Of a stretch of DNA of 64,000 nt, positions 19,267 to 50,227 are shown piece after piece. Position numbers and translations under genes: made by a program. The DNA comes from Nitrosopumilaceae archaeon (GTDB lineage Archaea > Thermoproteota > Nitrososphaeria > Nitrososphaerales > Nitrosopumilaceae): NCBI GenBank assembly GCA_965200155.1, contig CBDATR010000024.1:352001-416000 (forward strand). Direction: 5' to 3'. The notes under the pieces were generated by a model. It saw only the letters and a list, made by a program, of their open reading frames with translations, made no database searches and was not told the DNA's origin. Numbering within the stretch: position 1 is the first letter of the stretch; the number at the start of each line of letters is the position of its first letter.

Positions 19267-21498
19267 TTACTGGAGTGTCGTGAATGTCTTGATATTTGAG
19301 AACATAGTAGTGTCGCCCTTGAGCCGGACTAGTACCTGGTATGAGGTATCTGAATCCAAGCCTGTTATAGTATACGTGGTACCTGAGACATGATGTGCAG
19401 AGTGACGACTGCCATCATTGTTATTGATACGCACTACATAATCTGTCATGGAATGGTACTGATTCCAAGATAGAGTGGCGCCATTAGTGGTTGGGTTCAC
19501 ATTCAGTACTATGGAGTCTTCGACTCCCGTCAAGCCGCCATTCGCTGAGAGTGTAGTGAATGTCTTGGTATTTGAGAACATAGTAGTGTCGCCCTTGAGC
19601 CGGACTAGTACCTGGTATGAGGTATCTGAATCCAAGCCTGTTATAGTATGAGTGGTTCCGGCAACATGATTCACGAGTACTCTTGCGCCATTGGAATCAT
19701 TCACGCGAATCACATAGTCGTTTGTATCACCATATTTCTGCCAGGAAGCAGTAGCACCATCAGTTTTACTAGTCACTACAAGTCCCCACATATGTGTCGG
19801 GAATGAGGGAGTGAAATGTATCTTGTGTGACTTTGTATTTTCATTACCATTTAGCTGGACCTCAACTCTATACGTGGTACCTGGTATCAAATCATGTATA
19901 GTATGTGAGATTCCATTTGCCACATGTCTGGTCGTATCGCCATCGTTCCCTGTTAGAAACACCACATAGCTATTACCATTCTCATACCGGTCCCAATGTA
20001 TTGTGATACTACTCTCATCTAAATAGCAGTAGCCAACACGTGACACTTTGTCTATACTACGTATTGGTTTAGTATTCCAAGTGGAGAATGTGATTGGGTC
20101 TGAATCCGTGGCCGGACCGGTAACCGGGTGAGATGGGGCCGATACCGTTACAGTATAAGATTGACATGGTTCAAGTCCATATAATCTATATTTAACAATG
20201 GAATCGGCCGGGGCGTGGTGTGTTGTATGACTCGTTACATGACCGGATGAATCCGTTACCTTCACAATATACTCAGACTGCCTGGATATTGCGGTCCACG
20301 TTAAATCTACATGAGTAGAGAATGTCTTGTGTACGGCAAGGTCTGCCAGTGGAAGATTAGTAGTAGAGAATGATTTTGTCGCGGAGCCTACCTCCATATA
20401 AGCACCAGTTCCATTATATAGGGCGCTGACCTTTAAGTTGTAGTTGGTGCCCGGTTGCAGGCTGTCAACGTCTAGATTAATGGTTGTATTGGCCTGATAA
20501 TAACCTGTATGGCCCTGTGTTATAATATCATCGGAGTCAGTCGTCACCCTATACCCAAAGAAACCCGGATGATTCGCCATCCACGAGAAGGATGCGGCAT
20601 GGTGCGATATAGCAGTGGTATCCAGGTCCTCTATCATAATGGAATGGTTCGTGTCCCTGGTTTCAAAGTTGAACGAGCCGACGCTCATTGCTTTGGTATT
20701 ATCAGCGTATACATTTACCATATAGGTTGTGCCTGGTTCTAGTCCGGATATGCGTGTCATGCCCTCACTAGCCATACCAGATGCTACTACCTCATCACTA
20801 GTAGATACCTCATAGTATGATGAGTCTACATTCCACGACATGAATATAGTGTCATGCCCTATTTCTGTAGAGGGGATGAATGGACTGGTGGTCACAATAT
20901 CTAAACTTAGAAGGATAGCATTATCAAGACCAAATACATAGCCGCCAGTATACCTTGTCTCCGGTTTCAGATCCGTAACAGTAATAGTCGATCCTGTCGT
21001 GTAGTATACAGTCTCCGGACCATCAAGAAAAACTCCAGTGGTAGATACTCGGTCCTCTGGCGCTAGTTCTACGGTGAGAGTAGTATCCGTTATTTCTATG
21101 ATACGGGGTACCTCTATGCTACTTTCAGTGACGTTCAGTATAAAGTCATCATTGGCACGATCATTAACATTGGTTTTGTCCCATATGGTAATGCGAAGTT
21201 GGTATAAGCCAAATTGAGTACGGTCGGGTACTGCAAAAAGTTCAAATAAACCATGCCGTGAAGGTTTAGTTCCAATAAAATCGGGCGCTTTGGTACCGTT
21301 CTGATATTTTACCTCATAGTAGGAGTCAGTTGCATTAATTATGTAAGACCCTATCGTGCCCGCTTCTAGTTCGACTTCACCTAGTGGAGCGGTGAACTCT
21401 GGTGCAGCGGCGTATGCGGACGTTGCAAATGTAGTTATGATGATGAGTAATAGGATTGATTGTACCCCCCCCGGGAACCATAATAATACTAACAACAT
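19267..21498 (-). CDS. Secreted fibronectin type III repeat protein with an N-terminal cadherin/Ig-like domain
   Basis: Signal peptide; repeated ITGLxPxTxYxVxV FN3 signatures (about seven modules); G8 tract at 21465-21472 in the signal region. Confidence 0.88.
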   Translation of the reverse strand: MLLVLLWFPGGVQSILLLIIITTFATSAYAAAPEFTAPLGEVELEAGTIGSYIINATDSYYEVKYQNGTKAPDFIGTKPSRHGLFELFAVPDRTQFGLYQLRITIWDKTNVNDRANDDFILNVTESSIEVPRIIEITDTTLTVELAPEDRVSTTGVFLDGPETVYYTTGSTITVTDLKPETRYTGGYVFGLDNAILLSLDIVTTSPFIPSTEIGHDTIFMSWNVDSSYYEVSTSDEVVASGMASEGMTRISGLEPGTTYMVNVYADNTKAMSVGSFNFETRDTNHSIMIEDLDTTAISHHAASFSWMANHPGFFGYRVTTDSDDIITQGHTGYYQANTTINLDVDSLQPGTNYNLKVSALYNGTGAYMEVGSATKSFSTTNLPLADLAVHKTFSTHVDLTWTAISRQSEYIVKVTDSSGHVTSHTTHHAPADSIVKYRLYGLEPCQSYTVTVSAPSHPVTGPATDSDPITFSTWNTKPIRSIDKVSRVGYCYLDESSITIHWDRYENGNSYVVFLTGNDGDTTRHVANGISHTIHDLIPGTTYRVEVQLNGNENTKSHKIHFTPSFPTHMWGLVVTSKTDGATASWQKYGDTNDYVIRVNDSNGARVLVNHVAGTTHTITGLDSDTSYQVLVRLKGDTTMFSNTKTFTTLSANGGLTGVEDSIVLNVNPTTNGATLSWNQYHSMTDYVVRINNNDGSRHSAHHVSGTTYTITGLDSDTSYQVLVRLKGDTTMFSNIKTFTTLQ

Positions 21499-30598: not shown

Positions 30599-30600
30599 AG

Positions 30601-32097: not shown

Positions 32098-32149
32098 ATG
32101 GTGGGCGCTATACAACAACTCTTATTTACTTTTATTGGACTGTTGACTT

Positions 32150-36355: not shown

Positions 36356-37313
36356 TGTAATGTATGAAAAGTCGGTCCGCTAGTCATTGGCATCCCGCTC
36401 CATCCATTTTGCATCATTTGCCCTAATTGTCTGGGTCGCCTTTTTGTTCCTGAAGTGGCGTTTCGCCGTTATCTATATCCAGTGAGAAGTGCAACCTTCT
36501 CTCATTGTAGTAGTCAACATAATCCCGGAGACTGTCATAATGCCATATCTCGTTGGACTCTTAAATAGGAGTCCCCTCGTCCTCAATCATTCCATGGAAG
36601 CGCTCCAGTTTGCCATTTGTCTGCGGGGGGTATGGTCTGGAATTGATTAGTATGATGTCTTGATCCAGCAGTTCTTCCTAGAATAGTGGGTTTCCAGCTT
36701 TTCTTGCCCTTTTATTGTCCTACGAAACACGCGCCGTTATCCGAGATGCAGGGGCGCCGAATCGTTCTATAGCCAATCTCATTAATAGAGTGGCGTTCTC
36801 TGAGGTTGCATGCTCAAATAGTGCCGCTCCGACTATACACCTGGATGCATCATCTATGAGATTCAGTCCCCCTGAAGCGCTCATCTTTTCATGACATGCC
36901 AGTGCCACATTGCATTGGAATATTTACGCTCATAGCGTACCCACTCTGACTTTGCAGGTGATGATCCTGCCGTACCGTTCTTTTTCATTATGTGATATAC
37001 TGCGCGATATGTATTATGTCTCAGTCTCTTTGCAATATGTACTACTCCTGCGGGATCCTTGCTGTATGCTTCAGTCACCATTCGTATCTGGGTGGCGGTG
37101 ATTGGTATCATGGGCCTGCCCCTCTTTACTCGAGTCGTTCCCGTTCTCTGGTTCACAATCTTCGTACGTGTCTTGTTTCAGGTCTTGAGATATATTGGTT
37201 GCGGCAACGCCTCTTTTGTCGTGATTCCTCTGTTATTCTCTTTACCATATGGCTTGTGCAATCTGAACTACTGTACGCCGGATCCTAAGCGGACTTACTT
37301 TTCGTACTATTGA
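36356..37313 (-). mobile_element. IS481-family non-autonomous derivative, copy 2
   Basis: Reverse-complement copy of 31165-32097; carries a 22-bp hairpin insertion. Confidence 0.85.
36554..36575 (+). mobile_element. 22-bp hairpin micro-element with 5-bp target duplication
   Basis: ctcgt-[tggactcttaaataggagtccc]-ctcgt; copies 1 and 3 of the host IS show the empty site with one ctcgt. Confidence 0.85.
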
Positions 37314-37366
37314 ACGCCATGAGTGTGGCACAAATTATATACAAACGAAAAAATCCAGACAATCTA

Positions 37367-38833: not shown

Positions 38834-38842
38834 ACATTCCCA

Positions 38843-39958
38843 TCATGACTCTTCTATATGAGCCACACCCTTGCATATCATATATGCGGCGGCAAACGCT
38901 GGAACCTGGACATACTCGTTACTGTATGGGCCAAACCGCATACCCCTAAGCGTGAACTGTATTGGGCAAGTGGCACGTACACCTGTTTCCTCACTGTGTA
39001 TTTGTACTGCATGTACGTATGGATCAATATTCATGTCGGCGCATCTTATCTTTACAAGAGAGCTCTTGCCGTTTATGGTGCCGGGCATGCGGAATATACG
39101 ATGCACATCTGAGGTTACATTGGGATCAATACAGACTCCAATAGTCCTGGATACACTATCAATTACGCGCTCCATGGAATCATAGCCAGCCCGCACAAAT
39201 TGTGGTGCCTTTTTGTGTCGGCCAGACTTTGAGCCGAATACACCCCGAGCAAACCTCCCCCGCCACCCCCTTTCATCTAGGCGCGGTAGTAACGAGACAG
39301 TTGCGTTGCTCTTTTTCATGCCCAGCGTGTCAGGCATCAGACCCCGGCACCGGATATAGTCGGTCAGATCATGGCGTTCACGAGATTTTATCTTTGCCAA
39401 AGCGGAACTAGTTACGTGTATGTGATAGCCATCATTTCCCGAAAAGTATACCCGTATACCAGACTCTATTCCCAGATCCTCCTCCAGTATGTCTATTAGT
39501 TTTTCAACCTCTTTCTTGCACTGATCCATGCAGTTATTGCACGGCAGTGATAATGTCGTTGTACGGTTCGAGTCACAAAATGAGCATTTTAAATCCGTGC
39601 CAACAAGACCGCAATCAGAGCATACATGTACAGTATGGGATGAACGACACTTTGCATTGAGATCCTTGGCATCTATATCAAATATTATATCCGCGTCCTG
39701 CCACTCTTTGTCGGACATCGGCAATGCAGGAAACAGATACCTAGCGTTGGATGCGTAGACATCAGTGGGAGCTTCTCGCATCAATAATGGAAGTAAGTCA
39801 TTTTTATCCATTTGGATATGCCGGATCATACCGGAATCATGTCTTTGATATCCAAACTCCCGCTTCTCCATGTGTGGGGGCAACTCTACTGTGGAAAATC
39901 GCTCAAAGTAATAGCGCCGAATGCACGCAGTGATAAATTCGGCATCTGTGGAGATCAT
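38843..39958 (-). CDS. priS: DNA primase small (catalytic) subunit
   Basis: REFG, FDIDAKD, FSGNDGYH, IDPNVTSDVHRIFRMPGTINGKS; start placed at MISTD. Confidence 0.95.
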   Translation of the reverse strand: MISTDAEFITACIRRYYFERFSTVELPPHMEKREFGYQRHDSGMIRHIQMDKNDLLPLLMREAPTDVYASNARYLFPALPMSDKEWQDADIIFDIDAKDLNAKCRSSHTVHVCSDCGLVGTDLKCSFCDSNRTTTLSLPCNNCMDQCKKEVEKLIDILEEDLGIESGIRVYFSGNDGYHIHVTSSALAKIKSRERHDLTDYIRCRGLMPDTLGMKKSNATVSLLPRLDERGWRGRFARGVFGSKSGRHKKAPQFVRAGYDSMERVIDSVSRTIGVCIDPNVTSDVHRIFRMPGTINGKSSLVKIRCADMNIDPYVHAVQIHSEETGVRATCPIQFTLRGMRFGPYSNEYVQVPAFAAAYMICKGVAHIEES

Positions 39959-40968
39959 CGTGAGCCAAATTGTAAGGGGTTTGATATACCGGCGCATTCT
40001 GGTATGGCATAGCATAAATCCAAGGAGCGCAGTTTTTCACAAGACTGACATGTGTATCTTGTAGATTTTCCAAGCTTGCCAGCCAAATGGTTCAGCTGAT
40101 ATTCAGTAATTGATTGGTTATAGTCAGGAGCATTTTCAAAGTATGGTATAATATCAGGAATGGGATATTCTTGTCCCAGCATATATGTAGCAAGCATAAA
40201 ACGACCTGAGTGGGATAGATTCTTGCCCGCCTTCAAAGTGTCGATTGCATGACTTATGCATGGAGGAATTTTATTGGAAACTATAGTACGAGGCTGGAAT
40301 TTTGCTTCCATATTTTTTAATTGTGCCACAAAATCCTCTAGTCCGGGCACCATACTAGGAGTGGTAGCTGCATGTATCTTGGCAGTAATGTAGTTCACCA
40401 GCTCCTGTCGTATGAGCCGCACCGTTTCATGGGGAGTAAGAAATACCTTGCCTGATTCTACCCGGCGATTTATTAATTTCCATTCTCGTGCATGAAAATA
40501 TACTGCTCTACTAAGATAGTCTGCCACATTTATTATAAAATGATCATCGCTCTCTGATATTTCCACACCGGATATGTCATGTATTATTTTTGTAGCCAAT
40601 CTTCTTGTATCCATGGAGCTTCGTCTTAGATCAGATTCAAGAAAAAACTCGGCACCACGGGCTTCCTGCAGTGAAAATTTTTTTATCAAATACTGGGCGC
40701 GACTAAGTTTTAGCAATATCACAGATAACAGAAAAGACAGTACTTCACGAGGTAGACTGTCAGCAGCGAGATCGCGATTGATATCAGACTTGTATACCTT
40801 ACCCTCTTGCGTAGCCACCTGGATACGGGCAAACGCCCTCTCGCGTATGGATACAAGATCCGGGTCTTCACTGATCTGATCCAGCGTGAATCCGGACTCT
40901 CTCATGTAACGACCTGCATCAGTCAGAAATGGATACTTGGCTAGCTCGTGCGGCCCCAGCTCTATCAA
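39955..40968 (-). CDS. priL: DNA primase large subunit
   Basis: AKYPFL, WKLINR, PPCI, H.GRF.LA.Y, C-terminal Fe-S cysteines; adjacent to priS. Confidence 0.95.
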   Translation of the reverse strand: MIELGPHELAKYPFLTDAGRYMRESGFTLDQISEDPDLVSIRERAFARIQVATQEGKVYKSDINRDLAADSLPREVLSFLLSVILLKLSRAQYLIKKFSLQEARGAEFFLESDLRRSSMDTRRLATKIIHDISGVEISESDDHFIINVADYLSRAVYFHAREWKLINRRVESGKVFLTPHETVRLIRQELVNYITAKIHAATTPSMVPGLEDFVAQLKNMEAKFQPRTIVSNKIPPCISHAIDTLKAGKNLSHSGRFMLATYMLGQEYPIPDIIPYFENAPDYNQSITEYQLNHLAGKLGKSTRYTCQSCEKLRSLDLCYAIPECAGISNPLQFGSR

Positions 40969-41093
40969 CCCACATAGTACATTTGTTCTACAATATTGGT
41001 TTTGTGTCCCATAATTACCTGCGTAAACTAAGAATTTATGTAACGGACCAAGGATATGGATTTACACCACTAATCACATGCACAAGCCATACT

Positions 41094-41185
41094 GTATGAG
41101 TTCACCTGTGTCTAAATTTACGCATAACTGATCGCGACAGTTAATGTGATTTGTGCATAAGATTCCGGAAGACGTGAACTCATAC
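41094..41185 (+). mobile_element. 92-bp MITE, family 1
   Basis: 8-bp target duplication gccatact. Confidence 0.95.
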
Positions 41186-41264
41186 GCCATACTAATTATG
41201 TTGATTTGTTGTGCATGAATTTGAGCATATATGTCATTTAGCCAAATGGTTGCCATATGATGAA

Positions 41265-41352
41265 TGGTGCGGGAGATGGGATTTGAACCCACGAACTCCT
41301 AAGAGATAAGGACCTGAACCTTACGCCTTTGACCGGGCTGGGCGACTCCCGC
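41265..41352 (-). tRNA. tRNA-Leu (CAG), CCA encoded
   Basis: GCGGGAG acceptor stem, taagg-ttCAGgt-cctta anticodon arm, long variable arm, gttcaaatc T-loop. Confidence 0.95.
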
Positions 41353-41691
41353 AATTATAAAACTTTGATTATATAATATGACTCTTTTGGAAGGAAACAA
41401 ACATGTAACAACGTGCATAAACATCTAGCCTACAATATCACATAATGGTTATTTTTAGTTAGTTTACACCAATTATGAGTAAGTCTTACTAATTATAACG
41501 ATCCGCTGTAAGTAAATTCAGATATAAGTAACTCAGAATTTTATTAAAAATATTTATGAATTAGATGGAGATTATGCATAAAGGTCAGGGAATTCATGAC
41601 AGTAATGGGTTTTGTGCGTGATCGTTTTGGACATCGTTGCTTTGCAGACCTATTTGCATAATGTCCGATCTTTACCAGCTTATGTAGTAAT

Positions 41692-42073
41692 TGCATTGTT
41701 TAACATGCGCGTATCCCCAACCCACTCGCCGGTAACCGTAAATGTGAGTATTCTCTTGCTTTCACCGTCCGCGAGCACTGATGAATCCGCGCCTCTTTTT
41801 CCATTTGGCCCTAATCCACTCGCCACGATTCAAGGCCGGTCGAGTCAACAATCATGGTTCTAGTCAGCTTTTTGTCTGTGCCGATAATCATGCCATTCCC
41901 CTTGTCTATGTCAAGATCTCTTCCGCGTCTGTATATTGTGGAGTAGTACGGGGTTGTATGAGTTCACCTGTGTCTAAATTTACGCATAACTGATCGCGAC
42001 AGTTAGTGTGATTTGTGCACAAGATTCCGGAAGACGTGAACTCATACACGGGGTTTGGTACCCTTCCAGTAGT
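41692..42073 (-). pseudogene. IS5-family transposase remnant, second copy, MITE-interrupted
   Basis: Close match to about 23610-23882; MITE inserted at 41956. Confidence 0.75.
41956..42047 (+). mobile_element. 92-bp MITE, family 1
   Basis: 8-bp target duplication acggggtt; empty site visible in the paralogous IS5 remnant at about 23857. Confidence 0.96.
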
Positions 42074-42079
42074 AATTTT

Positions 42080-42171
42080 GTATGAGTTCACCTGTGTCTA
42101 AATTTACGCATAACTGATCGCGACAATTAATGTGATTTGTGCATAAGATTCCGGAAGACGTGAACTCATAC
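42080..42171 (+). mobile_element. 92-bp MITE, family 1
   Basis: Intact TIRs; no own target duplication. Confidence 0.95.
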
Positions 42172-42350
42172 CAACCAAACTGTATCAAAAAGGCGCACAT
42201 TAATCGAGCATGTCATACGTATGCTCAAGGTGTACCGTAGATTAAGTCAGGTATATGATGGCAGTCGTGAGGAATTCCGGATCTACTCGTAGTATCCGGG
42301 TTGCATAATTTGCACATTATGCACAAGCATACCAGGTACAAGAAATTTTT
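42172..42350 (+). pseudogene. Transposase C-terminal fragment (IS5/ISL2-group-like)
   Basis: Hand translation NQTVSKRRTLIEHVIRMLKVYRRLSQVY resembles the N...s..R..iEh....lK DDE helix. Confidence 0.5.
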
Positions 42351-42443
42351 GAAAAATATCTGTCCATAATTTCCGTGATATTATAATTCAAATATTACTC
42401 ATCAGAAAATCCACTAAATTAATGGGTTTTGTGGTAACAGTTT

Positions 42444-42535
42444 GTATGAGTTCACGTCTTCCGGAATCTTATGCACAAATCACATTAACTGTCGCGATCA
42501 GTTATGCGTAAATTTAGACACAGGTGAACTCACAC
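42444..42535 (-). mobile_element. 92-bp MITE, family 1
   Basis: Reverse orientation; flanks aacagttt / aaccgttt (7 of 8 match). Confidence 0.95.
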
Positions 42536-42786
42536 AACCGTTTAGCTCACTCATGATATACGTCATCAATATCCGGTCACCCCACTACACGACATTTGCA
42601 ATCACGGCATACGTTAGTGCTGGCAGGTGGCATTAACATTGTTCATGCTTGACTGATTGTGTGCCATAAAATACACCCTAGTTTGAAGCAACATGTGCTG
42701 CTACTGTCAATCATGCGCATAAGGTTTAATGTCCATTATTTACATAAATTCCAATGGACTAAATATGGTGATGCCTAGAGGTCTAT

Positions 42787-43515
42787 GTGGACCTTATACT
42801 TGGAATGGGTGAGGTTGGAACAGCCCTGAATGAACTATTAACATTACGAGGGTTTGCAGTATCTGGTCTAGATTCCATTAAATCTAAATGTGTGGGCCAT
42901 CCCCCCGATGTACCAGAGATCCTTCATGTTTGCATACCCGGAAGTTTTAAAAAATTTAACGAAATAGTTTTAGAGCACGCTAAAAGTGGCACGCAGGCAG
43001 TAATGATACACTCTACAGTCAAACCAGGCACCGCAGAGGCAGTACAAAAGAATACTATCATCCCAATAATATCATCCCCTACACGTGGAGTGCATATTAG
43101 ATTTGTTCAAGACATGACTAGGTATACAAAATTTGTAGCTGCCGACACAACTGTTGATGATGCACTCAAGAGATCCATTGATGCTAGATTTGTAAAGACA
43201 CAATGGATGTCTGGTACTCGAGTACTAGAATTAGCAAAAATATTAACCGATACTACCTACTACGGATGGTTGATAAACTATGCCCAAATAACAAAGATGA
43301 TCTGTGATACTGAAAGAGTAGATTATGATGAGTTGTGGACATTTGCGGAAGAAATACAGCAGTATCTGGGTAATCGTCCCAAGATGTATCCAGGCGTGAT
43401 AGGCGGGCATTGTGTAATACCAAACTTAGATCTACTTACATATGATCAAATTAACACAGTCGCAAATATTAATCAAATTTATCGTTCATACTTATCTGAA
43501 AGATCTAATCAATAA
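42787..43515 (+). CDS. Nucleotide-sugar (UDP-glucose/GDP-mannose) dehydrogenase family protein, short form
   Basis: ILGMGEVG Rossmann motif, IHSTVKPGT, ELAKI, PGVIGGHCVIPN. Confidence 0.85.
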   Translation: MDLILGMGEVGTALNELLTLRGFAVSGLDSIKSKCVGHPPDVPEILHVCIPGSFKKFNEIVLEHAKSGTQAVMIHSTVKPGTAEAVQKNTIIPIISSPTRGVHIRFVQDMTRYTKFVAADTTVDDALKRSIDARFVKTQWMSGTRVLELAKILTDTTYYGWLINYAQITKMICDTERVDYDELWTFAEEIQQYLGNRPKMYPGVIGGHCVIPNLDLLTYDQINTVANINQIYRSYLSERSNQ

Positions 43516-43602
43516 TTTTTTACATTTATCTAGATTTTTGTACGTGTTCGTTTATATTCAAATTTATGCATAGCGATTCTCTATTACTATGGGTATCTAT
43601 CT

Positions 43603-43694
43603 GTGTGAGTTCACCTGTGTCTGAATTTACGCATAACTGATCGCGACAGTTAATGTGATTTGTGCATAAAATTCCGGAAGACGTGAACTCATAC
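43603..43694 (+). mobile_element. 92-bp MITE, family 1
   Basis: TIRs with one mismatch; no own target duplication. Confidence 0.93.
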
Positions 43695-43701
43695 ATAATT
43701 T

Positions 43702-44559
43702 TTACAAGCCAATTTTATTTTTTATTTGTTTTTTCATTAATTTTAACTGATATTTTTTTATTTTTTCCCTCGTTTCATCTGGAAACTGAGAATAATACCC
43801 ATCTTTCTTAGGCCGGTATGTACAATATTGCCAAAACATATTCAAAACACCTCTTTTACTAATATCTGATTTTTTTAAAAAATGGGAAAAACATCTTGCA
43901 ATTGCATAAATAGGATGATACCCTACAGCCCTCATACCTCTGCCAAATCCTGAGAAGCCATGACTGTGGCCCAATTGGTCTACATGTTCAAAACCAATGT
44001 CATGAAATATTTTACTTGAATAACCCTCAACAAGTGCATTAAGTAGTATCTCTGATTCATAACCAACTATCTCGGGACATTTTTCATAGTGATCAAAGAA
44101 CCATTTTTGTTTTACAAATCTTCCAGCACCATGTGGAGCACTCGATTGTCTGCTTCCATAATCTCCGGATGCAACCACGATTTTTGTATCAGATTCCATT
44201 CTTTTAATTATTTTTTCTGCATAATTGTGTTCAAAAATCACATCTCCGGCAGCAATCATATAATAATCAAATTTTTTATCCCAGCACATATTAAATAACT
44301 TTGGTAGTCTTCCATAATCTCTGGTTTGACTATCTGTATGTATAACACGGATAATGTTTGGATACTTATTTTCAAATTCTTTTAAAATATTACTTGTGTT
44401 GTCTGTAGATCCGTCTTCAGCAACAATAATTTTTGCTGGTTTGTGAGTCTGTTCTACCAAGCTAACCATAACCTGCTGAATGGATTTCTCACCATCTCTT
44501 ACTGGCAAGATGCAATAATAGGTAGGTTTTGCTGATTTATAGTTTTGTGCAGATTTCAT
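43702..44559 (-). CDS. Glycosyltransferase family 2 protein
   Basis: ILPVRDGE, IVAEDGSTDNT GT-A motifs; strongly AT-rich coding sequence. Confidence 0.9.
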   Translation of the reverse strand: MKSAQNYKSAKPTYYCILPVRDGEKSIQQVMVSLVEQTHKPAKIIVAEDGSTDNTSNILKEFENKYPNIIRVIHTDSQTRDYGRLPKLFNMCWDKKFDYYMIAAGDVIFEHNYAEKIIKRMESDTKIVVASGDYGSRQSSAPHGAGRFVKQKWFFDHYEKCPEIVGYESEILLNALVEGYSSKIFHDIGFEHVDQLGHSHGFSGFGRGMRAVGYHPIYAIARCFSHFLKKSDISKRGVLNMFWQYCTYRPKKDGYYSQFPDETREKIKKYQLKLMKKQIKNKIGL

Positions 44560-44632
44560 ACGTACTATCTCTATCTAATTATACTTTTAAATGCTAGTCA
44601 CACTTGTGGGGCATGGGTCCACATGTGTTCCA

Positions 44633-44724
44633 GTATGAGTTCACCTGTGTCTAAATTTACGCATAACTGATCGCGACAGTTAATGTGATTTGTGCATAAG
44701 ATTCCGGAAGACGTGAACTCATAC
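44633..44724 (+). mobile_element. 92-bp MITE, family 1
   Basis: Intact TIRs; right flank gtcaatag is the reverse complement of the right flank of the copy at 48427-48533. Confidence 0.95.
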
Positions 44725-44725
44725 G

Positions 44726-45748
44726 TCAATAGTACGAAAAGTCCGCTTAGGATCCGGCGTGCAGTAGTTCAGATTGCACAAGCCAGATGGTAAAGAGGAT
44801 AACAGAGGAATCAAGACAAAAGAGGCGTTGCCGCCACCAAAATAGCTCAAGACCTGAAACAAGACACGTACGAAGATTGTGAACCAGAGAACGGGGACGA
44901 CTCAAGATGGGCAGGCCCAAGATACCAATCACCGCCACCCAGATACGAATGGTAACTGAAACATACGGCAAGGATCCCGCCGGAGTAGTACGTATTGCAA
45001 ATAGACTTAGACAGAATTACAATATATCGCGCAGTATATCGCATAATGAAAAAGAACGGTACGGCAGGATCATCACCTGCAAAGTCAGAGTGGGTACACT
45101 ATGAGCGTAAATATTCCAATGCAATGTGGCACTGGCATGTCATGAAAAGATGAGCGCTTCAGGGGACTGAATCTCATAGATGATGCATCCAGGTGCATAG
45201 TCGGAGCGGCACTATTTGAGCATGCGATCTCAGAGAACGCCGCTCTATTACTGAGACTGGCAATGAAACGATTCGGCGCCCCTGCATCTCGGATAACGGC
45301 GCGTGTTTCGTAGGACAATAAAAGGGCAAAAAGAACTGGAAACCCACTATTCTAGTATGAGTTCACCTGTGTCTAAATTTACGCATAACTGATCGCGACA
45401 GTTAATGTGATTTGTGTATAAGATTCCGGAAGACGTGAACTCATACCTATTCTAGGAAGAACTGCTGGATCAAGACATTATACTAATCAATTCCAGGCTA
45501 TACCACCCGCAGACAAATGGCAAACTGGAGCGCTTCCATGGAATGATTGAGGACGAGATATGGCACTATGACAGTCTCCGTGATTATGTGGACTACTACC
45601 ATGAGAGAAGGTTGCACTTCTCACTGGACAGATAACGGCGAAACACCACTCCAGGAATAAAAAGGCGACCCAGACAATTAGGGCAAATGATGCAAAATGG
45701 ATGGAGCGAGATACCAATGACTAGTGGACCGACTTTTCATACATTACA
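44726..45748 (+). mobile_element. IS481-family non-autonomous derivative, copy 3 (with MITE insertion)
   Basis: Matches 31165-32097; MITE at 45355-45446. Confidence 0.85.
45355..45446 (+). mobile_element. 92-bp MITE, family 1, nested in IS481 derivative
   Basis: 8-bp target duplication ctattcta; empty site in copies 1 and 2. Confidence 0.97.
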
Positions 45749-45793
45749 ATGTGATGACAATATTTATATTATTGTATACCATATTTTATCAAA

Positions 45794-47626
45794 ATGTTAA
45801 AATCTACTAACCGTAACAATATCGTACTTAAAGCTTTAATCGGGGGGGGGGGTCTCCTCCTTGCACTTTTACTAGTATTAGTACCGGCCACTGATCTTGC
45901 GTTTGCTCAAACAATCGAGTCTATCCACATATCTGTAGGTCCCGCCTCCACTAGTGCCACCGTTACATGGCATCAGTACCCAGGTGATACCGAATATGTC
46001 GTGGTGTTACGTAATGGATTTGGAGATAGAATTCCCGGTGGGGTAACACGCACTTCAGGAGACACATATGATATTACCGGACTGACTCCTGACTCCCAAT
46101 ATATCGTATTTGTCAGAACCATTGGAGACGGCTTTGTCAAGTCCAACACTGTACAGTTTAAGACAAAAGTCGCTCCCTCTAGTTCCATTAATACTATACC
46201 AGACATTACCATGGATGAGTCCGAGAGAAGAACCATACCACTCAGTGTAACCCCTGCGAGTGATTCTGTCACATATGCAATAACCAAACAGGACGGCACG
46301 GCTGCACCCAGATTTGCATACATAGCTGACGTATCTCCTGACCGTACATTTAGAGACGGCATTGTTTTGGCTCCTAACAGAAGCGAAAGTGGACAATATT
46401 CACTGCGTGTCACAGCAACTATTGGTAGCGACACCATACATGAGGACTTTGCACTTACCGTGAATGACGGCACTATAGATCCACCTAGTATCTCAGAAAT
46501 AACACCAAATTCTATAACTATTGAAGTACCTGGAACTCAACCAAAAGATGTTAAAAACTCACATCTTTGTATGATGGCTGATGTCTCTGAATCTTCTCCA
46601 TTGAAGTATAAACTGACCGAATCTCTGACTATTCATGGTACCATGACAATCACAAACCTCTTACCTAATACTGATTACACCATCCGTGTGATCAACGAAT
46701 GCGAAGATATAGGTTTAGCAACCTTCAATGTCAATACTGGCTCCTCCGCCCTAAGCTTCACTGACACCATAAATGACATTACCATGGCCGAGGGCACAAC
46801 ACGTAACATACAGATCAATGCAACTGATTCTGATAATAGGGACATTACATATAGTGTAGAGGTCCTGAACGACAAGACATTACCTGGCTCTGCGAAAATA
46901 TTAGATAGTACCCTCGTTTTGGAGCCTGATAGAACAGCAGCAGGGGAATACACTCTACGTGTCACAGCAACTGCTGGCAGCGACACTAAACGTGATGAAT
47001 TTGTACTTACCGTAAGTGACCCTGGTATTAATCCACCCCAAATCAAAACTCAAAATAGCACCTCTGTAACTATAGAGGTCGCCTCAGAGGACTATAATAC
47101 AAAAGACCCAACCTGTACAACCGCCGCTATCTTCAAAACCTCCTCCGGAGCTGCAAGTGCTGATTTAGAGGATTTCGAATCAAACCCCCTTACAATTACG
47201 GGCCTCTCACCTGATACTGCGTACACCATACGTGTGTTTAAATCCTGTGAACCCGATGTTGGAAGGCTGGGAATCCTAAAGTTCACTACATCTAGTAACA
47301 GTCAGACATCACCTGATAACAGTCAGACATCACCTGATAACAGTCAGACATCACCTGATAACAGTCAGACATTAGTACTAAGTAGAACCATAAGTGGCAA
47401 TGATGTTACTCTAAGCTGGAACGACTTGGCAGATACTGCCTATATCGTGGCGGTATTTGATGGGGACGGAGACCGAGTCATTACTGGCGGATCAGCACGC
47501 GTATCAACTAACTCCTATACCCTCGAAGACCTAGATGCTGACACATATACGGCATTTGTGAGAACCCCTGGACCCTCAGGAACTCATACCATGTCCAACA
47601 CTGTAACCTTTACCATCACTAGTTAA
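45794..47626 (+). CDS. Secreted FN3 / cadherin-like repeat protein
   Basis: Signal peptide with G11 tract (45842-45852); ITGLTPDSQY, ITNLLPNTDY, ITGLSPDTAY FN3 motifs alternating with DITMxE...GxYxLRVTAT cadherin/Ig-like modules; TATA-like tttatat at 45763. Confidence 0.88.
   Translation: MLKSTNRNNIVLKALIGGGGLLLALLLVLVPATDLAFAQTIESIHISVGPASTSATVTWHQYPGDTEYVVVLRNGFGDRIPGGVTRTSGDTYDITGLTPDSQYIVFVRTIGDGFVKSNTVQFKTKVAPSSSINTIPDITMDESERRTIPLSVTPASDSVTYAITKQDGTAAPRFAYIADVSPDRTFRDGIVLAPNRSESGQYSLRVTATIGSDTIHEDFALTVNDGTIDPPSISEITPNSITIEVPGTQPKDVKNSHLCMMADVSESSPLKYKLTESLTIHGTMTITNLLPNTDYTIRVINECEDIGLATFNVNTGSSALSFTDTINDITMAEGTTRNIQINATDSDNRDITYSVEVLNDKTLPGSAKILDSTLVLEPDRTAAGEYTLRVTATAGSDTKRDEFVLTVSDPGINPPQIKTQNSTSVTIEVASEDYNTKDPTCTTAAIFKTSSGAASADLEDFESNPLTITGLSPDTAYTIRVFKSCEPDVGRLGILKFTTSSNSQTSPDNSQTSPDNSQTSPDNSQTLVLSRTISGNDVTLSWNDLADTAYIVAVFDGDGDRVITGGSARVSTNSYTLEDLDADTYTAFVRTPGPSGTHTMSNTVTFTITS
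47296..47372 (+). repeat. In-frame 21-bp tandem repeat (NSQTSPD) x3.7
   Basis: taacagtcagacatcacctga perfect copies. Confidence 0.95.
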
Positions 47627-47633
47627 TTTTTTT
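47627..47633 (+). terminator. Oligo-T archaeal terminator candidate
   Basis: T7 immediately after the stop codon of the FN3 gene. Confidence 0.5.
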
Positions 47634-47688
47634 CTCAGTTTAAGTTGGCTCACGCGTTCAGATGCCAACCTGGCTTGTATGAGAGTGC

Positions 47689-48007
47689 GGCATAGCCATG
47701 AAATTGTTCTAGCCGCCCAACCACGGGATGGCATAGCCATGAAATTGTTCTAGCCGCCCAACCACGGGATGGCATAGCCACGAAATTGTTCTAGCCGTCC
47801 AACCATGGGGTGGCATAGCCATGAAATTGTTCTAGCCGCCCAACCACGGGATGGCATAGCCACGAAATTGTTCTAGCCGTCCAACCATGGGGTGGCATAG
47901 CCACGAAATTGTTCTAGCCGCCCAACCATGGGGTGGCATAGCCACGAAATTGTTCTAGCCGCCCAACCATGGGGTGGCATAGCCACGAAATTGTTCTAGC
48001 CGTCCAA
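47689..48007. repeat. 41-bp minisatellite, about 7.8 copies
   Basis: ggcatagcca(t/c)gaaattgttctagccg(c/t)ccaacca(c/t)ggg(a/g)t at 47689, 47730, 47771, 47812, 47853, 47894, 47935, 47976; no spacers. Confidence 0.97.
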
Positions 48008-48426
48008 TCGCCAAAAGACAGTAAGGTTGGCGCATATCCTGTCCCGACAGAGTACACATAACGGAATTAATGCCAGCTAGAATGTGCGGTAGCAGTGAGC
48101 GGGAATGATTCCAATTGGGTGCGGTAAACAAGGGGGCGGCCATTCCAGGGCCGATTATACCTGGGAACAATTCATGGTACATGTGGAATAGCAGAGAATA
48201 GTGGCTGGATTTGGATGATGTAAGTAGTTCATATGGACGGCTACCATGTAATGAGTCACGAATGGCGTGTATCCGCACCTGGGCGCTATCAGGACGCCCG
48301 GATCATCCCTGAATCGTTGCGGGTCGTCCGCGCAAATTACTGAGGGGATTGAATCATTCTTGGACGTGTTCCGGGAATGATTCCCGGCCAGTTAAAGTCC
48401 ACACCGGGCCTTTCTGTAGTAGAATG

Positions 48427-48533
48427 GTATGAGTTCACCTGTGTCTAAATGGAACGGGTCATTCTATAACTGATCGCGACAGTTAAAGAACCGGTTCTTT
48501 TGTGCATAAGATTCCGAAGACGTAAACTCATAC
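48427..48533 (+). mobile_element. MITE family 1, variant
   Basis: Same two internal replacements as the 22266 copy; right flank ctattgac. Confidence 0.93.
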
Positions 48534-48960
48534 CTATTGACGTCCGGCTCCACCCTCACTACAAGGGTCGTTTTCCTGTCATCATTTATTGGTGCTAATC
48601 GGCTCTCGCCTCCCTTACCCAATAGTGTCACCAAATCATAACCGTCCGGTAATATATCCGGTAGCGGGATTGAAAGTCGGTTATTGCCATCAGGTCCTGT
48701 TACTGTACCAGCGTCACGTCAATTTGGGACTGGTATGATGGAATCACATTATCGTTAGCCGCGTGTACGGTAGTCACAGGCATTATTCCGGTAACAGCAA
48801 ATACAAGGTATGAGTTCACCTGTGTCTAAATTTACGCACAACTGATGGAACAGGTTGTTCTAGTTAATGTGATTTGTGCACAAGATTCCGGAAGACGTAA
48901 ACTCATACAATACAAGACTCACTGTAGCCAAGATTGTAATTATGGTAGTTTTGTTATTAA
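48534..48960 (-). pseudogene. Remnant of an exported-protein gene, MITE-interrupted
   Basis: Removing the MITE at 48808 gives NNKTTIITILATVSLVFAVTGIMPVTTVHAAND (signal-peptide-like), then a frameshifted continuation; upper boundary approximate. Confidence 0.45.
48808..48908 (+). mobile_element. MITE family 1, variant (101 bp)
   Basis: 8-bp target duplication aatacaag; cgcgac replaced by ggaacaggttgttct. Confidence 0.95.
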
Positions 48961-49272
48961 TTGCAGTTCACGCTCCCATACATGGTTGGTCGTAGCGCGT
49001 GCTGCGTATAGTCTCGCTCTATCGGGGGAGGGGCGAGGATAACTGATGCCAGCGAGCGTTGCCACCATTAGTAAATCCAGTCGTATTAAATAAGTATTTT
49101 TTAGTGTAAATCATAGTAAATCATTCAAATAAATCGACAAATATCAGCAATCACACACAGAATTCATCACTTTTTTGAATTTCCTGACCTATTGGAATGA
49201 CTGCCGTAGTCTTTGATCATGATTAGAAGCAGAACCCCAGATTTATGTACGTGTCATAATATCACTGAATTC

Positions 49273-49683
49273 ATGGCACCGTATAATACACTAGAGCATT
49301 CCACCGACGCCCTCATCGAGGTTGTCTCCCCCAGTATCGCTGAGGCGTTCCAGGATGCCGGATATGCCACCATAGACATAATGATAAACCGGGAACACGT
49401 AAAAAAGTCCTACAGTCGCACCATACACGTCGAGGCAGACAGTATGCACGAACTGCTATTCCTGTGGCTGGAGGAGATGATATTTCAGACCATAACTGAT
49501 GGCTTTGCAATATCGGAAATATGCGTCACGTACCGGGACGGCCACATAGACTCTACAGTACACGGCGAACCATTAGACATACGGAAACATCACTTTAGAG
49601 TGGAGGTAAAGGCGCCCACATATCACGAGATGGCCATACAATATGATAGTGATGCCACAATGAGGTTCCTGCTGGATTTATGA
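49273..49683 (+). CDS. Archease
   Basis: LEHSTDA, LLFLWLEE, VEVKAPTYHEM, terminal LDL; start placed at MAPYN. Confidence 0.93.
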   Translation: MAPYNTLEHSTDALIEVVSPSIAEAFQDAGYATIDIMINREHVKKSYSRTIHVEADSMHELLFLWLEEMIFQTITDGFAISEICVTYRDGHIDSTVHGEPLDIRKHHFRVEVKAPTYHEMAIQYDSDATMRFLLDL

Positions 49684-49698
49684 GACGAGACTTTTATT

Positions 49699-49816
49699 GT
49701 ATGAGTTCACCTGTGTCTAAATTTACGTATGAGTTCATTACTGTCTAAATTTACACACGACTGATCGTAACTATTGGTACGGCTCACGTGTGATTGGCGA
49801 ATACGTGAACTCATGC
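49699..49816 (+). mobile_element. MITE family 1, chimeric copy with duplicated left end and divergent interior
   Basis: gtatgagttca occurs at 49699 and 49727; 8-bp target duplication cttttatt around the whole unit. Confidence 0.9.
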
Positions 49817-49846
49817 CTTTTATTGTCATAACCAGTCACCACACAC

Positions 49847-50227
49847 ATGACAGACCCCGAGATAGAGCGCATCATGCACGAGAAGATGCGTCGTATGATG
49901 ACCCCCAAGAGAGTCATAATAGACATTACTGATGGAAACTTTAACGATATACTGACACAAAATCACCACGTATTGGTGGACTTTTGGGCGGAATGGTGCG
50001 GCCCCTGCCGTTCCATGCATCCCGTATTCGAGGACATATCAAAGACATATGAACACATCCAGTTTGCCAGAATGAATGTAGACCAGAACAGTCTTGTTCC
50101 CGCCAAATACTCTGTGCAGTCCATACCGACTTTCATACTATTCTGTAATGGAACGGCTACGCAGAGACTGACCGGTGCGGTGAGCCCCACCACATTACAT
50201 ACACTGTGCAGGGGTTGTAAGGACTAG
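49847..50227 (+). CDS. trxA: Thioredoxin
   Basis: VDFWAEWCGPC, SIPT. Confidence 0.96.
   Translation: MTDPEIERIMHEKMRRMMTPKRVIIDITDGNFNDILTQNHHVLVDFWAEWCGPCRSMHPVFEDISKTYEHIQFARMNVDQNSLVPAKYSVQSIPTFILFCNGTATQRLTGAVSPTTLHTLCRGCKD

What the first reader, a model, noticed from the sequence alone, without database searches (positions are those of the whole stretch)
45842..45852. G11 tract in the signal peptide of FN3/cadherin gene 2: candidate archaeal phase variation
Seen: atc-ggg-ggg-ggg-ggt (I-G-G-G-G) at codons 16-20, directly before the hydrophobic core; the longest homopolymer I noticed in the window; in frame, with no alternative in-frame start before the core. Together with the G8 in the paralogue this is two of two adhesin-like genes. 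Established: G tracts of this length slip at high frequency in bacterial contingency loci. Inference: a family of stochastically switched, MITE-mobilised adhesins, essentially undescribed in archaea to my knowledge.
Basis: partly seen in the sequence, partly recalled or inferred. Interest (0 to 1): 0.8.

Follow-up and report, generated by a model that had tools for sequence, protein, structure and literature searches.

The report
Poly-G on/off switches in archaeal surface genes
A run of eleven G's at the start of a secreted adhesin-like gene in a sponge-associated ammonia-oxidising archaeon is one of about a dozen copies of the same switch-like tract, some in frame and some not, which looks like the random on/off gene switching known from bacterial pathogens but hardly described in archaea.

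Summary
The G11 tract is real (window 45842-45852, codons 17-20 of a 610-aa secreted multi-FN3 protein) and is the only G/C run of 9 or more in the window. Twelve genes in the genome share the same promoter, start codon and signal-peptide module, with G11, G12 or G13 at the same place. One copy has an interrupted tract, G5AG5. Five copies are in frame. Seven are out of frame, and the six of these not cut by a contig end keep intact 495-689-codon frames behind the tract.

Near-identical copies differ almost only in tract length. G/C run lengths are bimodal: 16 runs of 11-13 in the large contigs against 0.05 expected. Three of the remaining long tracts lie in restriction-modification or defence genes, and one lies in another signal peptide. 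All 9 same-genus genomes searched also carry long G tracts, some of them in DndB and methylase genes.

The best reading (about 0.7) is slipped-strand phase variation of an opa-like adhesin family within a wider set of switchable genes in an archaeon. Length variation at a single locus within a population was not shown, because only contigs of public runs were available. Those contigs hold G10, G11 and G12 forms, but paralogues collapse onto one another. Mis-sized tracts in the assembly remain the main rival. MITE mobilisation is unsupported. I found no paper describing this in archaea.

The parts
45842..45852 (+). G11 homopolymer, the proposed slippage tract; read as GGG GGG GGG GG(T) = Gly17-Gly20
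   Evidence: The same position carries G11, G12, G13 or G5AG5 in 11 other genes of the genome.
45794..47626 (+). Gene for a 610-aa secreted protein of six beta-sandwich (FN3/Ig-like) domains; in frame (ON) with G11
   Evidence: ORF and translation. Pfam fn3 E 4e-15. AlphaFold2 model, mean pLDDT 73.2, all-beta. Best Foldseek PDB matches are multi-Ig/FN3 ectodomains (Robo2, contactin 2, RPTP sigma) and the bacterial protein GhpA.
45794..45910 (+). Signal-peptide coding part (aa 1-39: basic n-region, Gly4 from the tract, hydrophobic core, AFA|Q cleavage-type motif). Nearly identical in all 12 paralogues
   Evidence: Read and the alignment. The signal-peptide assignment is by eye; no predictor was run.
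45749..45793 (+). Conserved upstream module with an A/T-rich TATA-like box (about 45760-45773) some 25-30 nt before the ATG. Probably an archaeal promoter giving a leaderless or short-leader mRNA (inferred)
   Evidence: Homology between paralogues begins here. Promoter function is inferred and was not tested.
47296..47372 (+). 21-nt tandem repeat, 3.7 copies, coding the SPDNSQT linker before the last FN3 domain. Copy number differs between near-identical paralogues
47627..47633 (+). T7 run directly after the stop codon; possibly an archaeal oligo-T terminator (inferred)
   Evidence: One RNA contig has one T fewer here.
47689..48007 (+). 41-nt tandem array, 7.8 copies, 60 nt downstream of the stop. 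Found only downstream of family members, with 0-7 units
44701..45700 (+). Remnant of an rve-type transposase (IS with about 90 copies) directly upstream; shared by 4 of the 12 family loci
21465..21472 (-). G8 tract (C8 on + strand) in codons 9-12 of the signal peptide of a different FN3 gene
19267..21498 (-). 743-aa FN3-repeat protein carrying the G8 tract. Not a member of the G11 family; its 5' end is unique in the genome

Best explanation
The G11 tract is a slipped-strand 'contingency' switch.

The host is an ammonia-oxidising archaeon whose DNA and RNA are found in sponge metagenome runs. It carries 12 copies of a species-specific gene family for secreted proteins made of strings of FN3/Ig-like domains. 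All copies share one 5' cassette: a TATA-like upstream box, an ATG, 15 further codons, a poly-G tract, then the hydrophobic core and cleavage motif of the signal peptide.

Proposed mechanism (inferred): during replication the G run gains or loses a base. Only one length class keeps the ATG in frame with the body of the gene: G11 for copies whose tract is followed by TCTCC, and G12 for those followed by CTCC. The other lengths end translation after 24-33 codons. Each copy would therefore flip on and off independently, so that a cell shows a random subset of a diversifying adhesin repertoire. This is the arrangement of the Neisseria opa genes.

The same kind of tract sits in restriction-modification and defence genes of this genome and of its genus, so the family would be part of a genome-wide set of switchable genes.

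Shown here: the tract, the family, the in-frame and out-of-frame states in the assembly, the intact frames behind out-of-frame tracts, the excess of long G/C runs, and the gene classes involved.

Inferred: that the lengths change reversibly at high rate in living populations, and that this changes surface display.
For: 1. Family and states. Twelve loci share the module and all have ATG 48 nt before the tract.
- G11: 4 loci. G12: 5 loci. G13: 2 loci. G5AG5: 1 locus.
- Five are in frame, with ORFs of 552-784 aa.
- Seven are out of frame, with as-is ORFs of 24-33 aa. Six of these have an intact frame of 495-689 codons after the tract; the seventh is cut by a contig end.

2. The out-of-frame copies are not decayed.
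- No stops occur in any of the 11 full copies, and every indel between them is in frame.
- Pairs differ by 174-205 substitutions, and 3.0-3.7% of random substitutions would create a stop. My arithmetic from those figures gives roughly 6 stops expected per pair under neutrality.

3. The tract changes faster than its surroundings.
- C9:122573 (G11, ON) and C34:158244 (G12, OFF) differ over 2.45 kb by 3 substitutions, the tract, and one 21-nt repeat unit.
- C12:1-4031 and C22:44451-48483 are identical over the first 3994 nt except G11 versus G13.

4. Long tracts are in excess.
- In the 21 contigs of at least 12 kb (2.21 Mb), G/C runs number 349, 47, 5, 1, 1 for lengths 6-10, then 4, 9, 3 for lengths 11-13.
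- Extrapolating the decay predicts 0.048 runs of 11-13; 16 are seen.

5. Tract purity is not explained by codon usage. GGG is the rarest Gly codon, 102 of 627 (16%) in 18 window ORFs, yet 11 of 12 copies keep a pure run. The one interrupted copy also has its last FN3 domain out of frame.

6. Gene classes. Of the 19 G/C runs of 9 or more in large contigs:
- 11 are the family.
- 1 is in the signal peptide of another secreted protein.
- 3 are in defence genes: a type IIG/ISP-like RE-MTase in frame, a type IIG RE-MTase that stops 4 codons after the tract while another frame runs 73 aa further, and an HmaC-like ATPase split into 406 + 415 aa.

7. Relatives.
- 9 of 9 same-genus genomes and 27 of 60 other family genomes have G runs of 10 or more.
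- In a closed same-genus genome, tracts lie at or in DndB, a D12 MTase, an N6_N4 MTase-HNH gene split at the tract, and the start of a secreted GSDH.
- DndB of another species has poly-G where this one has poly-C.

8. Repair. No MutS domain V and no NucS were found in the genome, which is 87.6% complete.

9. Public runs. Contigs with one G more and one G fewer than G11 occur beside the reference form in the runs that cover the tract (X1, X3, X4; X9 does not). Contigs of an RNA run hold the gene.

10. Assembly quality. Only 13 of 1420 A/T runs of 6 or more show a split-gene signature, so the assembly is not riddled with homopolymer errors.
Against: No raw reads could be laid, so length variation at a single locus within a population, and its reversibility, are not shown.

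At the tract the contigs of all 12 paralogues collapse: depth is about 1000 against about 90 for single-copy DNA. The minus-one and plus-one contigs are only 4-5% of that depth in the DNA runs (50.5 of 1219; 37.7 of 1034.3). That is what homopolymer read error could give.

The plus-one contig (depth 38-41) is much shallower than five fixed G12 copies would predict, about 450 by my arithmetic. Either the contig tables are incomplete, or those runs hold other states than the assembly, or the assembly mis-sizes some tracts. I cannot tell which.

The long contigs run through an IS of about 90 copies and a MITE of about 570 copies, which suggests a long-read assembly. In such assemblies the exact length of 11-13-nt runs is the least reliable feature.

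Four of 11 pure tracts are in frame, close to the one third expected from random lengths. This fits free switching but also fits noise.

dN/dS of 0.75-1.24 in most pairs is also what relaxed constraint gives.

The family was found in no other genome or protein collection, so no orthologous locus from another strain could be compared.
Confidence: 0.7

Rival explanations
1. Artefact of tract sizing. The tracts are real, but their exact lengths in this assembly are consensus errors. In the cells all copies would be in frame, and the run would simply code a Gly3-4 hinge in the signal peptide.
For: The contigs span highly repeated IS and MITE copies, so long reads were probably used. Homopolymers of 11-13 are the hardest feature to size in such data. 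In the DNA runs the plus-one and minus-one contigs are only 4-5% of the collapsed depth, and the plus-one form is much shallower than five G12 copies would give. The share in frame (4 of 11) is what random sizing would give.
Against: Only 13 of 1420 A/T runs of 6 or more look like split genes. C12 and C22 differ by 2 nt in the tract and by nothing else over 3994 nt. This rival does not explain why runs of 11-13 exist at all when runs of 8-10 are nearly absent, why GGG, the rarest Gly codon, is kept pure, or why the other long tracts sit in RM and defence genes here and in closed genomes of the genus.
Confidence: 0.13
2. One-way decay. The tract is a mutational hot spot, and the out-of-frame copies are young pseudogenes in a symbiont genome that is degrading (IS and MITE bloom). 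There would be no adaptive, reversible switching.
For: The genome carries about 570 MITE and about 90 IS copies. There are 5'-truncated FN3 gene fragments. One family copy has a second frameshift. dN/dS is near 1.
Against: All six full-length out-of-frame copies keep 495-689 codons open despite 174-205 differences between copies. Every indel between copies is in frame. An ON-ON pair has dN/dS 2.5 (39 non-synonymous against 5 synonymous changes), which points to diversifying selection and not to neglect. Decay would interrupt or shorten tracts, yet 11 of 12 are pure and 11-13 long.
Confidence: 0.12
3. Correction at expression level. RNA polymerase stuttering or ribosomal frameshifting on the G run yields some full-length protein from every copy, so the DNA length tunes output without switching it.
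For: In the RNA run the one-G-shorter form makes up 291 of 1321.6 depth (22%, 2 contigs), against 4-5% in the DNA runs. This is a weak hint of extra slippage at the RNA or reverse-transcription level.
Against: The same difference can come from reverse transcription and PCR. No plus-one form was listed in the RNA run. No frameshift-stimulating structure stands out: the RNA fold of the 5' end has z = 0.31 against shuffles. This would add to DNA-level variation, not replace it.
Confidence: 0.05

Closest known systems
Neisseria opa genes (opacity adhesins; CTCTT repeats in the signal-peptide coding region). Comparison from my own knowledge; no paper read on it here
   Same: About a dozen dispersed paralogues per genome. 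The repeat lies inside the signal-peptide coding part, so its length sets the reading frame of an otherwise intact gene. The 5' end is conserved while the bodies are variable and mosaic. In a single genome some copies are in frame and most are out of frame.
   Different: The repeat here is a homopolymer (G11-13), not a pentamer. The host is an archaeon with archaeal replication genes in the window (PriS/PriL, RPA) and no MutS or NucS found. The product is a string of FN3/Ig-like domains, not an outer-membrane beta-barrel. There is no sequence relationship. Switching has not been observed here.
Poly-G/C contingency loci of Campylobacter, Helicobacter and Haemophilus, and phase-variable RM systems ('phasevarions'). 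Reviewed in PMC11868660 (one passage read) and PMC13076061 (passages read); PhasomeIt paper PMC6321876 (search listing only)
   Same: G/C tracts of about 9-13 nt in 5' coding regions. A bimodal tract-length spectrum. The gene classes are surface proteins plus restriction-modification and methyltransferase genes. Many loci per genome. The host is animal-associated.
   Different: All described cases are bacterial. The 2025 review names PV locus distributions across archaeal and phage phylogenies as a future expansion. Here most tracts belong to one gene family that shares a whole promoter and signal-peptide cassette.
General over-representation of homopolymeric tracts at 5' ends of prokaryotic genes (Orsi et al. 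2010, PMC2831843; passages read)
   Same: Proposes homopolymer-based gene inactivation as a general prokaryotic device, and included 18 archaeal genomes.
   Different: That study found signal for poly-A/T runs of up to 7-8 nt. Poly-G/C runs and runs above 8 nt were not nearer to 5' ends, and it described no archaeal gene family or set of loci.
Eukaryote-like FN3/Ig/cadherin-domain proteins of sponge-associated Thaumarchaeota (Haber et al. 2021, PMC7848895; passages read)
   Same: Same kind of organism and same domain types, thought to mediate contact with the host. RM systems are enriched in some sponge archaea.
   Different: My term search of that paper found no occurrence of homopolymer, poly-G, frameshift or phase variation. 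It reports no clear difference in FN3 abundance between symbionts and free-living forms.

Membership tests
Simple-sequence-repeat contingency locus (translational phase variation) | A hypermutable repeat inside the 5' coding region, longer than chance allows | tested here: met
   G11 at codons 17-20. Shuffles give 0.05 per window. In large contigs, 16 runs of 11-13 against 0.048 expected.
Simple-sequence-repeat contingency locus (translational phase variation) | Alleles or copies that differ in repeat length by non-multiples of three, with the rest of the gene intact | tested here: met
   G11, G12 and G13 among 12 paralogues: 7 out of frame, with 495-689 codons open in the 6 full-length ones. 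Near-identical pairs differ in the tract. This compares paralogues or duplicate contigs, not proven alleles of one locus.
Simple-sequence-repeat contingency locus (translational phase variation) | Length heterogeneity at one locus within a population, above sequencing error, and reversible | tested here: inconclusive
   Contigs of public runs hold G10, G11 and G12 forms. Paralogues collapse at the tract, and the minor forms are 4-5% of depth in DNA runs. No raw reads were available.
Simple-sequence-repeat contingency locus (translational phase variation) | Switching of the phenotype (protein present or absent) with tract length | not testable with these tools
   Needs proteomics or reporter assays.
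Simple-sequence-repeat contingency locus (translational phase variation) | Typical gene classes: surface or secreted proteins and restriction-modification genes | tested here: met
   15 of the 19 G/C runs of 9 or more in large contigs lie in secreted-protein genes (12) or defence genes (3).
opa-type multigene adhesin family | Homology to Opa beta-barrel proteins | tested here: not met
   Pfam gives fn3 and Ig-like families only. The model is six beta-sandwich domains. The likeness is in gene organisation only.
Fibronectin type III domain proteins (PF00041) | Pfam fn3 match above the gathering score | tested here: met
   P0001: 56.2 bits against a cut-off of 25. All 8 paralogue proteins scanned match fn3. 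39 fn3 matches in the genome.
Cadherin domain proteins | Match to a cadherin Pfam family | tested here: not met
   No cadherin family at E <= 0.01 in P0001 or P0002. One paralogue (P0004) matches He_PIG 'putative Ig domain' at E 8.9e-11.
Phase-variable restriction-modification system (phasevarion) | Repeat tract inside the ORF of an RM methyltransferase or RE-MTase fusion | tested here: met
   C12 tract in a type IIG RE-MTase (PADLOC E 1.7e-76). G12 in a type IIG/ISP-like RE-MTase (E 1.6e-143). G12 splitting an HmaC-like ATPase beside an HmaB-like methylase.
Phase-variable restriction-modification system (phasevarion) | Methylation and gene expression change with tract state | not testable with these tools
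   Needs methylome and transcriptome data sorted by tract state.

The most novel reading that the evidence does not exclude
A whole genus of host-associated ammonia-oxidising archaea may run a set of switchable genes of the bacterial-pathogen type. In this species that would be a 12-gene, opa-like family of independently switching FN3/Ig adhesins built on a shared promoter, signal-peptide and poly-G cassette, together with phase-variable restriction-modification and defence genes. It would be the first multi-locus simple-repeat contingency system in Archaea. It would operate with an archaeal replisome and with no MutS or NucS found, and would have evolved independently of the bacterial cases.
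Probability: 0.55. Interest if true: 0.85.

Novelty: new variant of a known kind. Interest (0 to 1): 0.8.

Why it matters
Repeat-driven phase variation is textbook for bacterial pathogens and commensals. The 2025 review I consulted names PV locus distributions across archaeal and phage phylogenies as a future expansion (PMC11868660, one passage read).

If this holds, bet-hedging by hypermutable repeats evolved in a second domain of life under the same pressures: an animal host on one side and viruses on the other. It would also hand sponge-symbiosis research a concrete set of candidate host-contact proteins whose display varies from cell to cell.

It would matter for annotation too. Gene callers start the out-of-frame copies at internal methionines, giving proteins of 468-648 aa without a signal peptide, and they split the RM genes. 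Such loci are therefore being read as truncated proteins or pseudogenes.

It also makes a testable point about replication fidelity in archaea that lack MutS/MutL and NucS.

Tried and rejected
- Other collections, DNA level. The 211-nt module was not found in 40 relatives, 9 of them same genus. Two pattern scans of metagenome contigs and one of genome contigs found nothing.
- Other collections, protein level. The search for related loci found nothing in genome contigs. The search for homologous proteins returned only the genome's own 9 proteins. The family profile found no match in 9 same-genus genomes at E <= 1e-10. No orthologous locus from another strain could therefore be compared.
- Public runs. 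All 11 runs are kept as contigs. Laying 4 of them showed G10 and G12 forms but cannot assign them to a locus or separate them from read error. Run X9 has no cover at the tract.
- RNA hairpin. The G run can pair with the following CUCCUCC, which the terminator-like scan flagged. The fold is no more stable than shuffles, z = 0.31, so I dropped the idea.
- G8 and G10 tracts at C9:85970 and C9:88898. I first took these for a second small gene family. They are spacers of a CRISPR array.
- MITE mobilisation. Considered and rejected as unsupported.
- Poly-G as a two-colour sequencing artefact at contig ends. Rejected for the family, because its tracts lie well inside large contigs, except C12:212. 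The very long runs (18-30 nt) of all four bases on contigs under 12 kb were left out of all counts as probable host DNA.
Full report
**Observation**

The window has G11 at 45842-45852. It lies in an ATG-initiated ORF, 45794..47626, of 610 aa. The tract is read as Gly17-Gly20. It sits between a basic N-terminus (MLKSTNRNNIVLKALI) and a hydrophobic core ending in AFA|Q, which by eye is a signal peptide.

It is the longest homopolymer and the only G/C run of 9 or more in the 64 kb. Dinucleotide-preserving shuffles give a mean of 0.05 such runs; 4 of 100 shuffles had at least one.

It covers codons 9-12 of a 743-aa FN3-repeat ORF on the minus strand.

**The organism**

The window encodes the two archaeal primase subunits, aIF-2, TiaS, Dph2, Cdc48 and RPA-type replication factor A. 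Archaeal AmoA lies on the same contig (E 1.7e-115). The genome held for it has 2.38 Mb in 51 contigs, 46.6% G+C, and is 87.6% complete.

Public runs that hold the gene include a sponge metagenome and metatranscriptomes. The host is therefore an ammonia-oxidising archaeon that occurs in sponge-derived runs.

**The tract is one of a family**

A scan of the whole genome found twelve loci with the same 5' cassette. The cassette has these parts:
- about 45 nt of conserved A/T-rich upstream sequence;
- an ATG;
- 15 further codons;
- the G run;
- (T)CTCCTCCTTGCAC...CCGGCCACTGATCTTGCGTTTGC, which codes the hydrophobic core and the cleavage motif.

Tract lengths are G11 (4 loci), G12 (5), G13 (2) and one interrupted G5AG5.

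Frame states, all:
- Copies followed by TCTCC are in frame at G11: C24 (this window), C9:122573 and C9:23308.
- They are out of frame at G12 (C5, C9:53966, C34, C35) and at G13 (C10).
- The three copies followed by CTCC need G12. C43 is in frame; C22:44662 (G13) and C12:212 (G11) are not.

In total 5 of 12 are in frame, with ORFs of 552-784 aa. Seven are out of frame, with as-is ORFs of 24-33 aa.

Six of the seven out-of-frame copies have an uninterrupted frame of 495-689 codons behind the tract. The seventh is cut by a contig end. In the out-of-frame copies the long frame is closed by a stop 2-10 nt before the tract. No start codon lies between the tract and the core. A shifted copy therefore cannot make a protein with a signal peptide.

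**The out-of-frame copies are not old pseudogenes**

All 11 full-length copies end in the same C-terminal FN3 domain (...TVTFTITS), and their centres are mosaic, with 61-99% amino-acid identity.

Pairs differ by 174-205 substitutions and by many indels, yet there is no stop and every indel is in frame. Because 3.0-3.7% of random substitutions in these genes would create a stop, about six stops per such pair would be expected without selection; that figure is my arithmetic.

dN/dS is 0.75-1.24 in most pairs and 2.5 in one ON-ON pair (39 non-synonymous against 5 synonymous changes). This is the pattern of diversifying surface proteins, although relaxed constraint cannot be excluded from dN/dS alone.

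The single copy with an interrupted tract is also the only one with a second defect: its last FN3 domain is out of frame.

**The tract changes faster than anything around it**

C9:122573 (G11, in frame) and C34:158244 (G12, out of frame) match over 2.45 kb. The match starts 45 nt before the ATG. They differ by three substitutions, the one-G difference, and one unit of a 21-nt repeat.

C12:1-4031 and C22:44451-48483 are identical over the first 3994 nt except for G11 versus G13. I cannot say whether these are two loci or two haplotypes of one locus.

**Genome-wide picture**

In the 21 contigs of at least 12 kb (2.21 Mb), G/C runs number:

| Run length | 6 | 7 | 8 | 9 | 10 | 11 | 12 | 13 |
|---|---|---|---|---|---|---|---|---|
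| Count | 349 | 47 | 5 | 1 | 1 | 4 | 9 | 3 |

There is also one G24. Extrapolating the decay predicts 0.048 runs of 11-13; 16 are seen.

GGG is the rarest glycine codon, 102 of 627 in 18 window ORFs, so codon usage does not explain pure GGG strings.

The 19 runs of 9 or more break down as follows:
- Eleven belong to the family.
- One (G9, C34:6414) sits in the n-region of the signal peptide of another secreted protein.
- Three sit in defence genes:
  - G12, in frame, in a 1418-aa Mrr-helicase-methylase fusion (PADLOC type IIG RE-MTase, E 1.6e-143);
  - C12 in a 1237-aa type IIG RE-MTase (E 1.7e-76), which as assembled stops four codons after the tract while another frame runs 73 aa further;
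  - G12 splitting an HmaC-like ATPase into 406 + 415 aa, next to an HmaB-like methylase.
- One is a CRISPR spacer.
- Three are intergenic or unexplained.

Surface proteins and restriction-modification genes are the two classes that carry such tracts in bacteria (PMC11868660, one passage read).

**Relatives**

The family itself was found nowhere else:
- not as DNA in 40 relatives;
- not as protein in 9 same-genus genomes;
- not in genome contigs or metagenome contigs;
- only as the genome's own 9 entries among 5.8 billion proteins.

Long G runs, however, are a trait of the group. Nine of 9 same-genus genomes and 27 of 60 other genomes of the family have at least one G10.

In one closed same-genus genome (G005) I looked at all 11 tracts:
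- poly-C just before the DndB domain;
- G12 in a D12 adenine methylase;
- G13 splitting an N6_N4 methylase-HNH gene;
- G12 between two open frames without a Pfam family;
- G10 at the start of a secreted glucose/sorbosone dehydrogenase;
- six in short frames or intergenic DNA.

DndB of another species (G002) has poly-G at the corresponding place. In three further genomes a G/C run of 10-11 lies between a TATA-like box and the start codon of a secreted protein: a Big_12 protein, a subtilase, and one without a family. These loci were the first hit listed per genome, not a controlled sample.

**What the protein is**

Pfam finds fn3 (56.2 bits) in P0001 and in all eight paralogue proteins scanned, He_PIG in one paralogue, and no cadherin family.

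An AlphaFold2 model built on the nine-sequence family alignment (mean pLDDT 73.2) shows six beta-sandwich domains and a disordered SPDNSQT linker. Foldseek against the PDB ranks highest the multi-Ig/FN3 ectodomains of Robo2, contactin 2 and RPTP sigma, and the bacterial grappling-hook protein GhpA.

'Adhesin-like' is a fair description. The binding partner is unknown.

**Population and expression data**

Eleven public runs from four studies hold the gene. All are kept as contigs only. I laid four of them on window 30001-50000.

Contig depths at the tract (form depth / total depth at that place):

| Run | One G more | One G fewer |
|---|---|---|
| X4 (DNA?) | 37.7 / 1034.3 | 50.5 / 1219 |
| X3 | 41 / 653.1 | 40.4 / 750.6 |
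| X1 (RNA) | none listed | 291 / 1321.6 (2 contigs) |

Single-copy depth in X3 and X4 is about 90. Depth at the tract is the collapsed family, so the variant contigs cannot be assigned to a locus. At 4-5% of total depth they are within what read error at G11 could give.

X3 and X4 have nearly the same depths and contig lengths, so they may not be independent. The plus-one contig is also much shallower than five fixed G12 copies would give. I have no explanation for that.

The contigs of the RNA run hold the family at high depth (913-2041) beside neighbours at 4-265. The tool warns that contig depth cannot rank genes, so I take this only as presence in an RNA library.

**Assembly quality**

Contigs of 0.5 Mb run through an IS with about 90 copies and a MITE with about 570 copies. 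This points to long reads, in which runs of 11-13 are hard to size.

Against a general problem: only 13 of 1420 A/T runs of 6 or more show a split-gene signature.

**Mechanism**

I found no MutS domain V and no NucS in this incomplete genome. That fits poor correction of slippage loops; this step is inference.

I therefore propose replication slippage at the G run as the event, the reading frame as the read-out, and independent switching of the 12 copies as the outcome. The restriction-modification and defence genes would switch in the same way.

**Rivals**

- Mis-sized tracts in the assembly: 0.13.
- One-way decay at a hot spot: 0.12.
- Correction at the RNA or ribosome level: 0.05.

**Literature**

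Searches for phase variation, contingency loci, homopolymeric tracts or poly-G together with archaea found no description of an archaeal repeat-driven gene family or set of switchable loci.
- Orsi et al. 2010 (PMC2831843, passages read) covered 18 archaeal genomes and found signal only for short poly-A/T runs.
- A 2025 preprint states that contingency loci are known in archaea (passages read). The one archaeal item among the references it cites for this is a paper on simple repeats in archaeal genomes (reference list passage).
- The 2025 phase-variation review names PV locus distributions across archaeal and phage phylogenies as a future expansion.
- In papers on sponge archaea, my term searches found no occurrence of these terms.

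Subscription journals are not covered by these searches.

**Verdict**

It is unproven at the level of living populations, and it is wrong or unsupported on MITE mobilisation and on the 'cadherin' label.

Noticed in passing
G000:C9:85000-90000 (locus L054): CRISPR array with a 36-37-nt repeat. Two spacers share the same 3' part but carry G8 and G10, as if taken from two length variants of a poly-G tract in a virus or mobile element.
   Followed up: partly
window 47689-48007: A 41-nt tandem array (7.8 units) starts 60 nt after the stop codon. Units occur only downstream of family members, with 0-7 units per copy. Function unknown.
   Followed up: partly
window 47296-47372: A 21-nt repeat codes the SPDNSQT linker. 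Copy number differs between otherwise near-identical paralogues, so it is a second, in-frame, variable repeat in the same gene.
   Followed up: partly
window 43601-43700, 44601-44700, 48801-48900 and 44701-45700: A MITE-like element of roughly 100 nt has about 570 BLAST hits in the genome, and an rve-type IS has about 90. This is a repeat bloom typical of recently host-restricted symbionts.
   Followed up: partly
G000 contigs under 12 kb (C2, C4, C6, C8, C11, C14, C18, C26, C29, C33, C38-C41, C49): Runs of 18-30 nt of all four bases, and (AC)n microsatellites. These contigs look like eukaryotic, probably host, DNA binned with the archaeon. I left them out of all counts.
   Followed up: no
G005 locus L087 and G002 locus L045: The dndB genes of two same-genus species both have a homopolymer just before the DndB domain, poly-C in one and poly-G in the other. 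This suggests a tract was gained or kept independently at the same place.
   Followed up: partly
Loci L025 (G010), L032 (G041), L034 (G023): In other genera of the family a G/C run of 10-11 lies between a TATA-like box and the start codon of a secreted protein (Big_12 protein, S8 subtilase, one without a family). It could act on transcription or leader length and not on the reading frame.
   Followed up: partly
G000:C24:154002-154014 (locus L055): An intergenic C13 lies about 175 nt upstream of a polytopic membrane protein with no Pfam family. It may be a promoter-located tract.
   Followed up: no
window 45841-45842, RNA run X1: The one-G-shorter form is 22% of contig depth in the RNA run against 4-5% in the DNA runs. 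It could be stuttering in transcription or an artefact of reverse transcription and PCR.
   Followed up: no
window 41265-41352 (-): An 88-nt tRNA-Leu (CAG) lies between the primase genes and the repeat-rich region.
   Followed up: no
G000:C10:484954-486456 and C5:42750-43973: Two 5'-truncated copies, 98% identical to the C-terminal two thirds of the G8-bearing FN3 gene. These are gene fragments without a start or a tract.
   Followed up: partly
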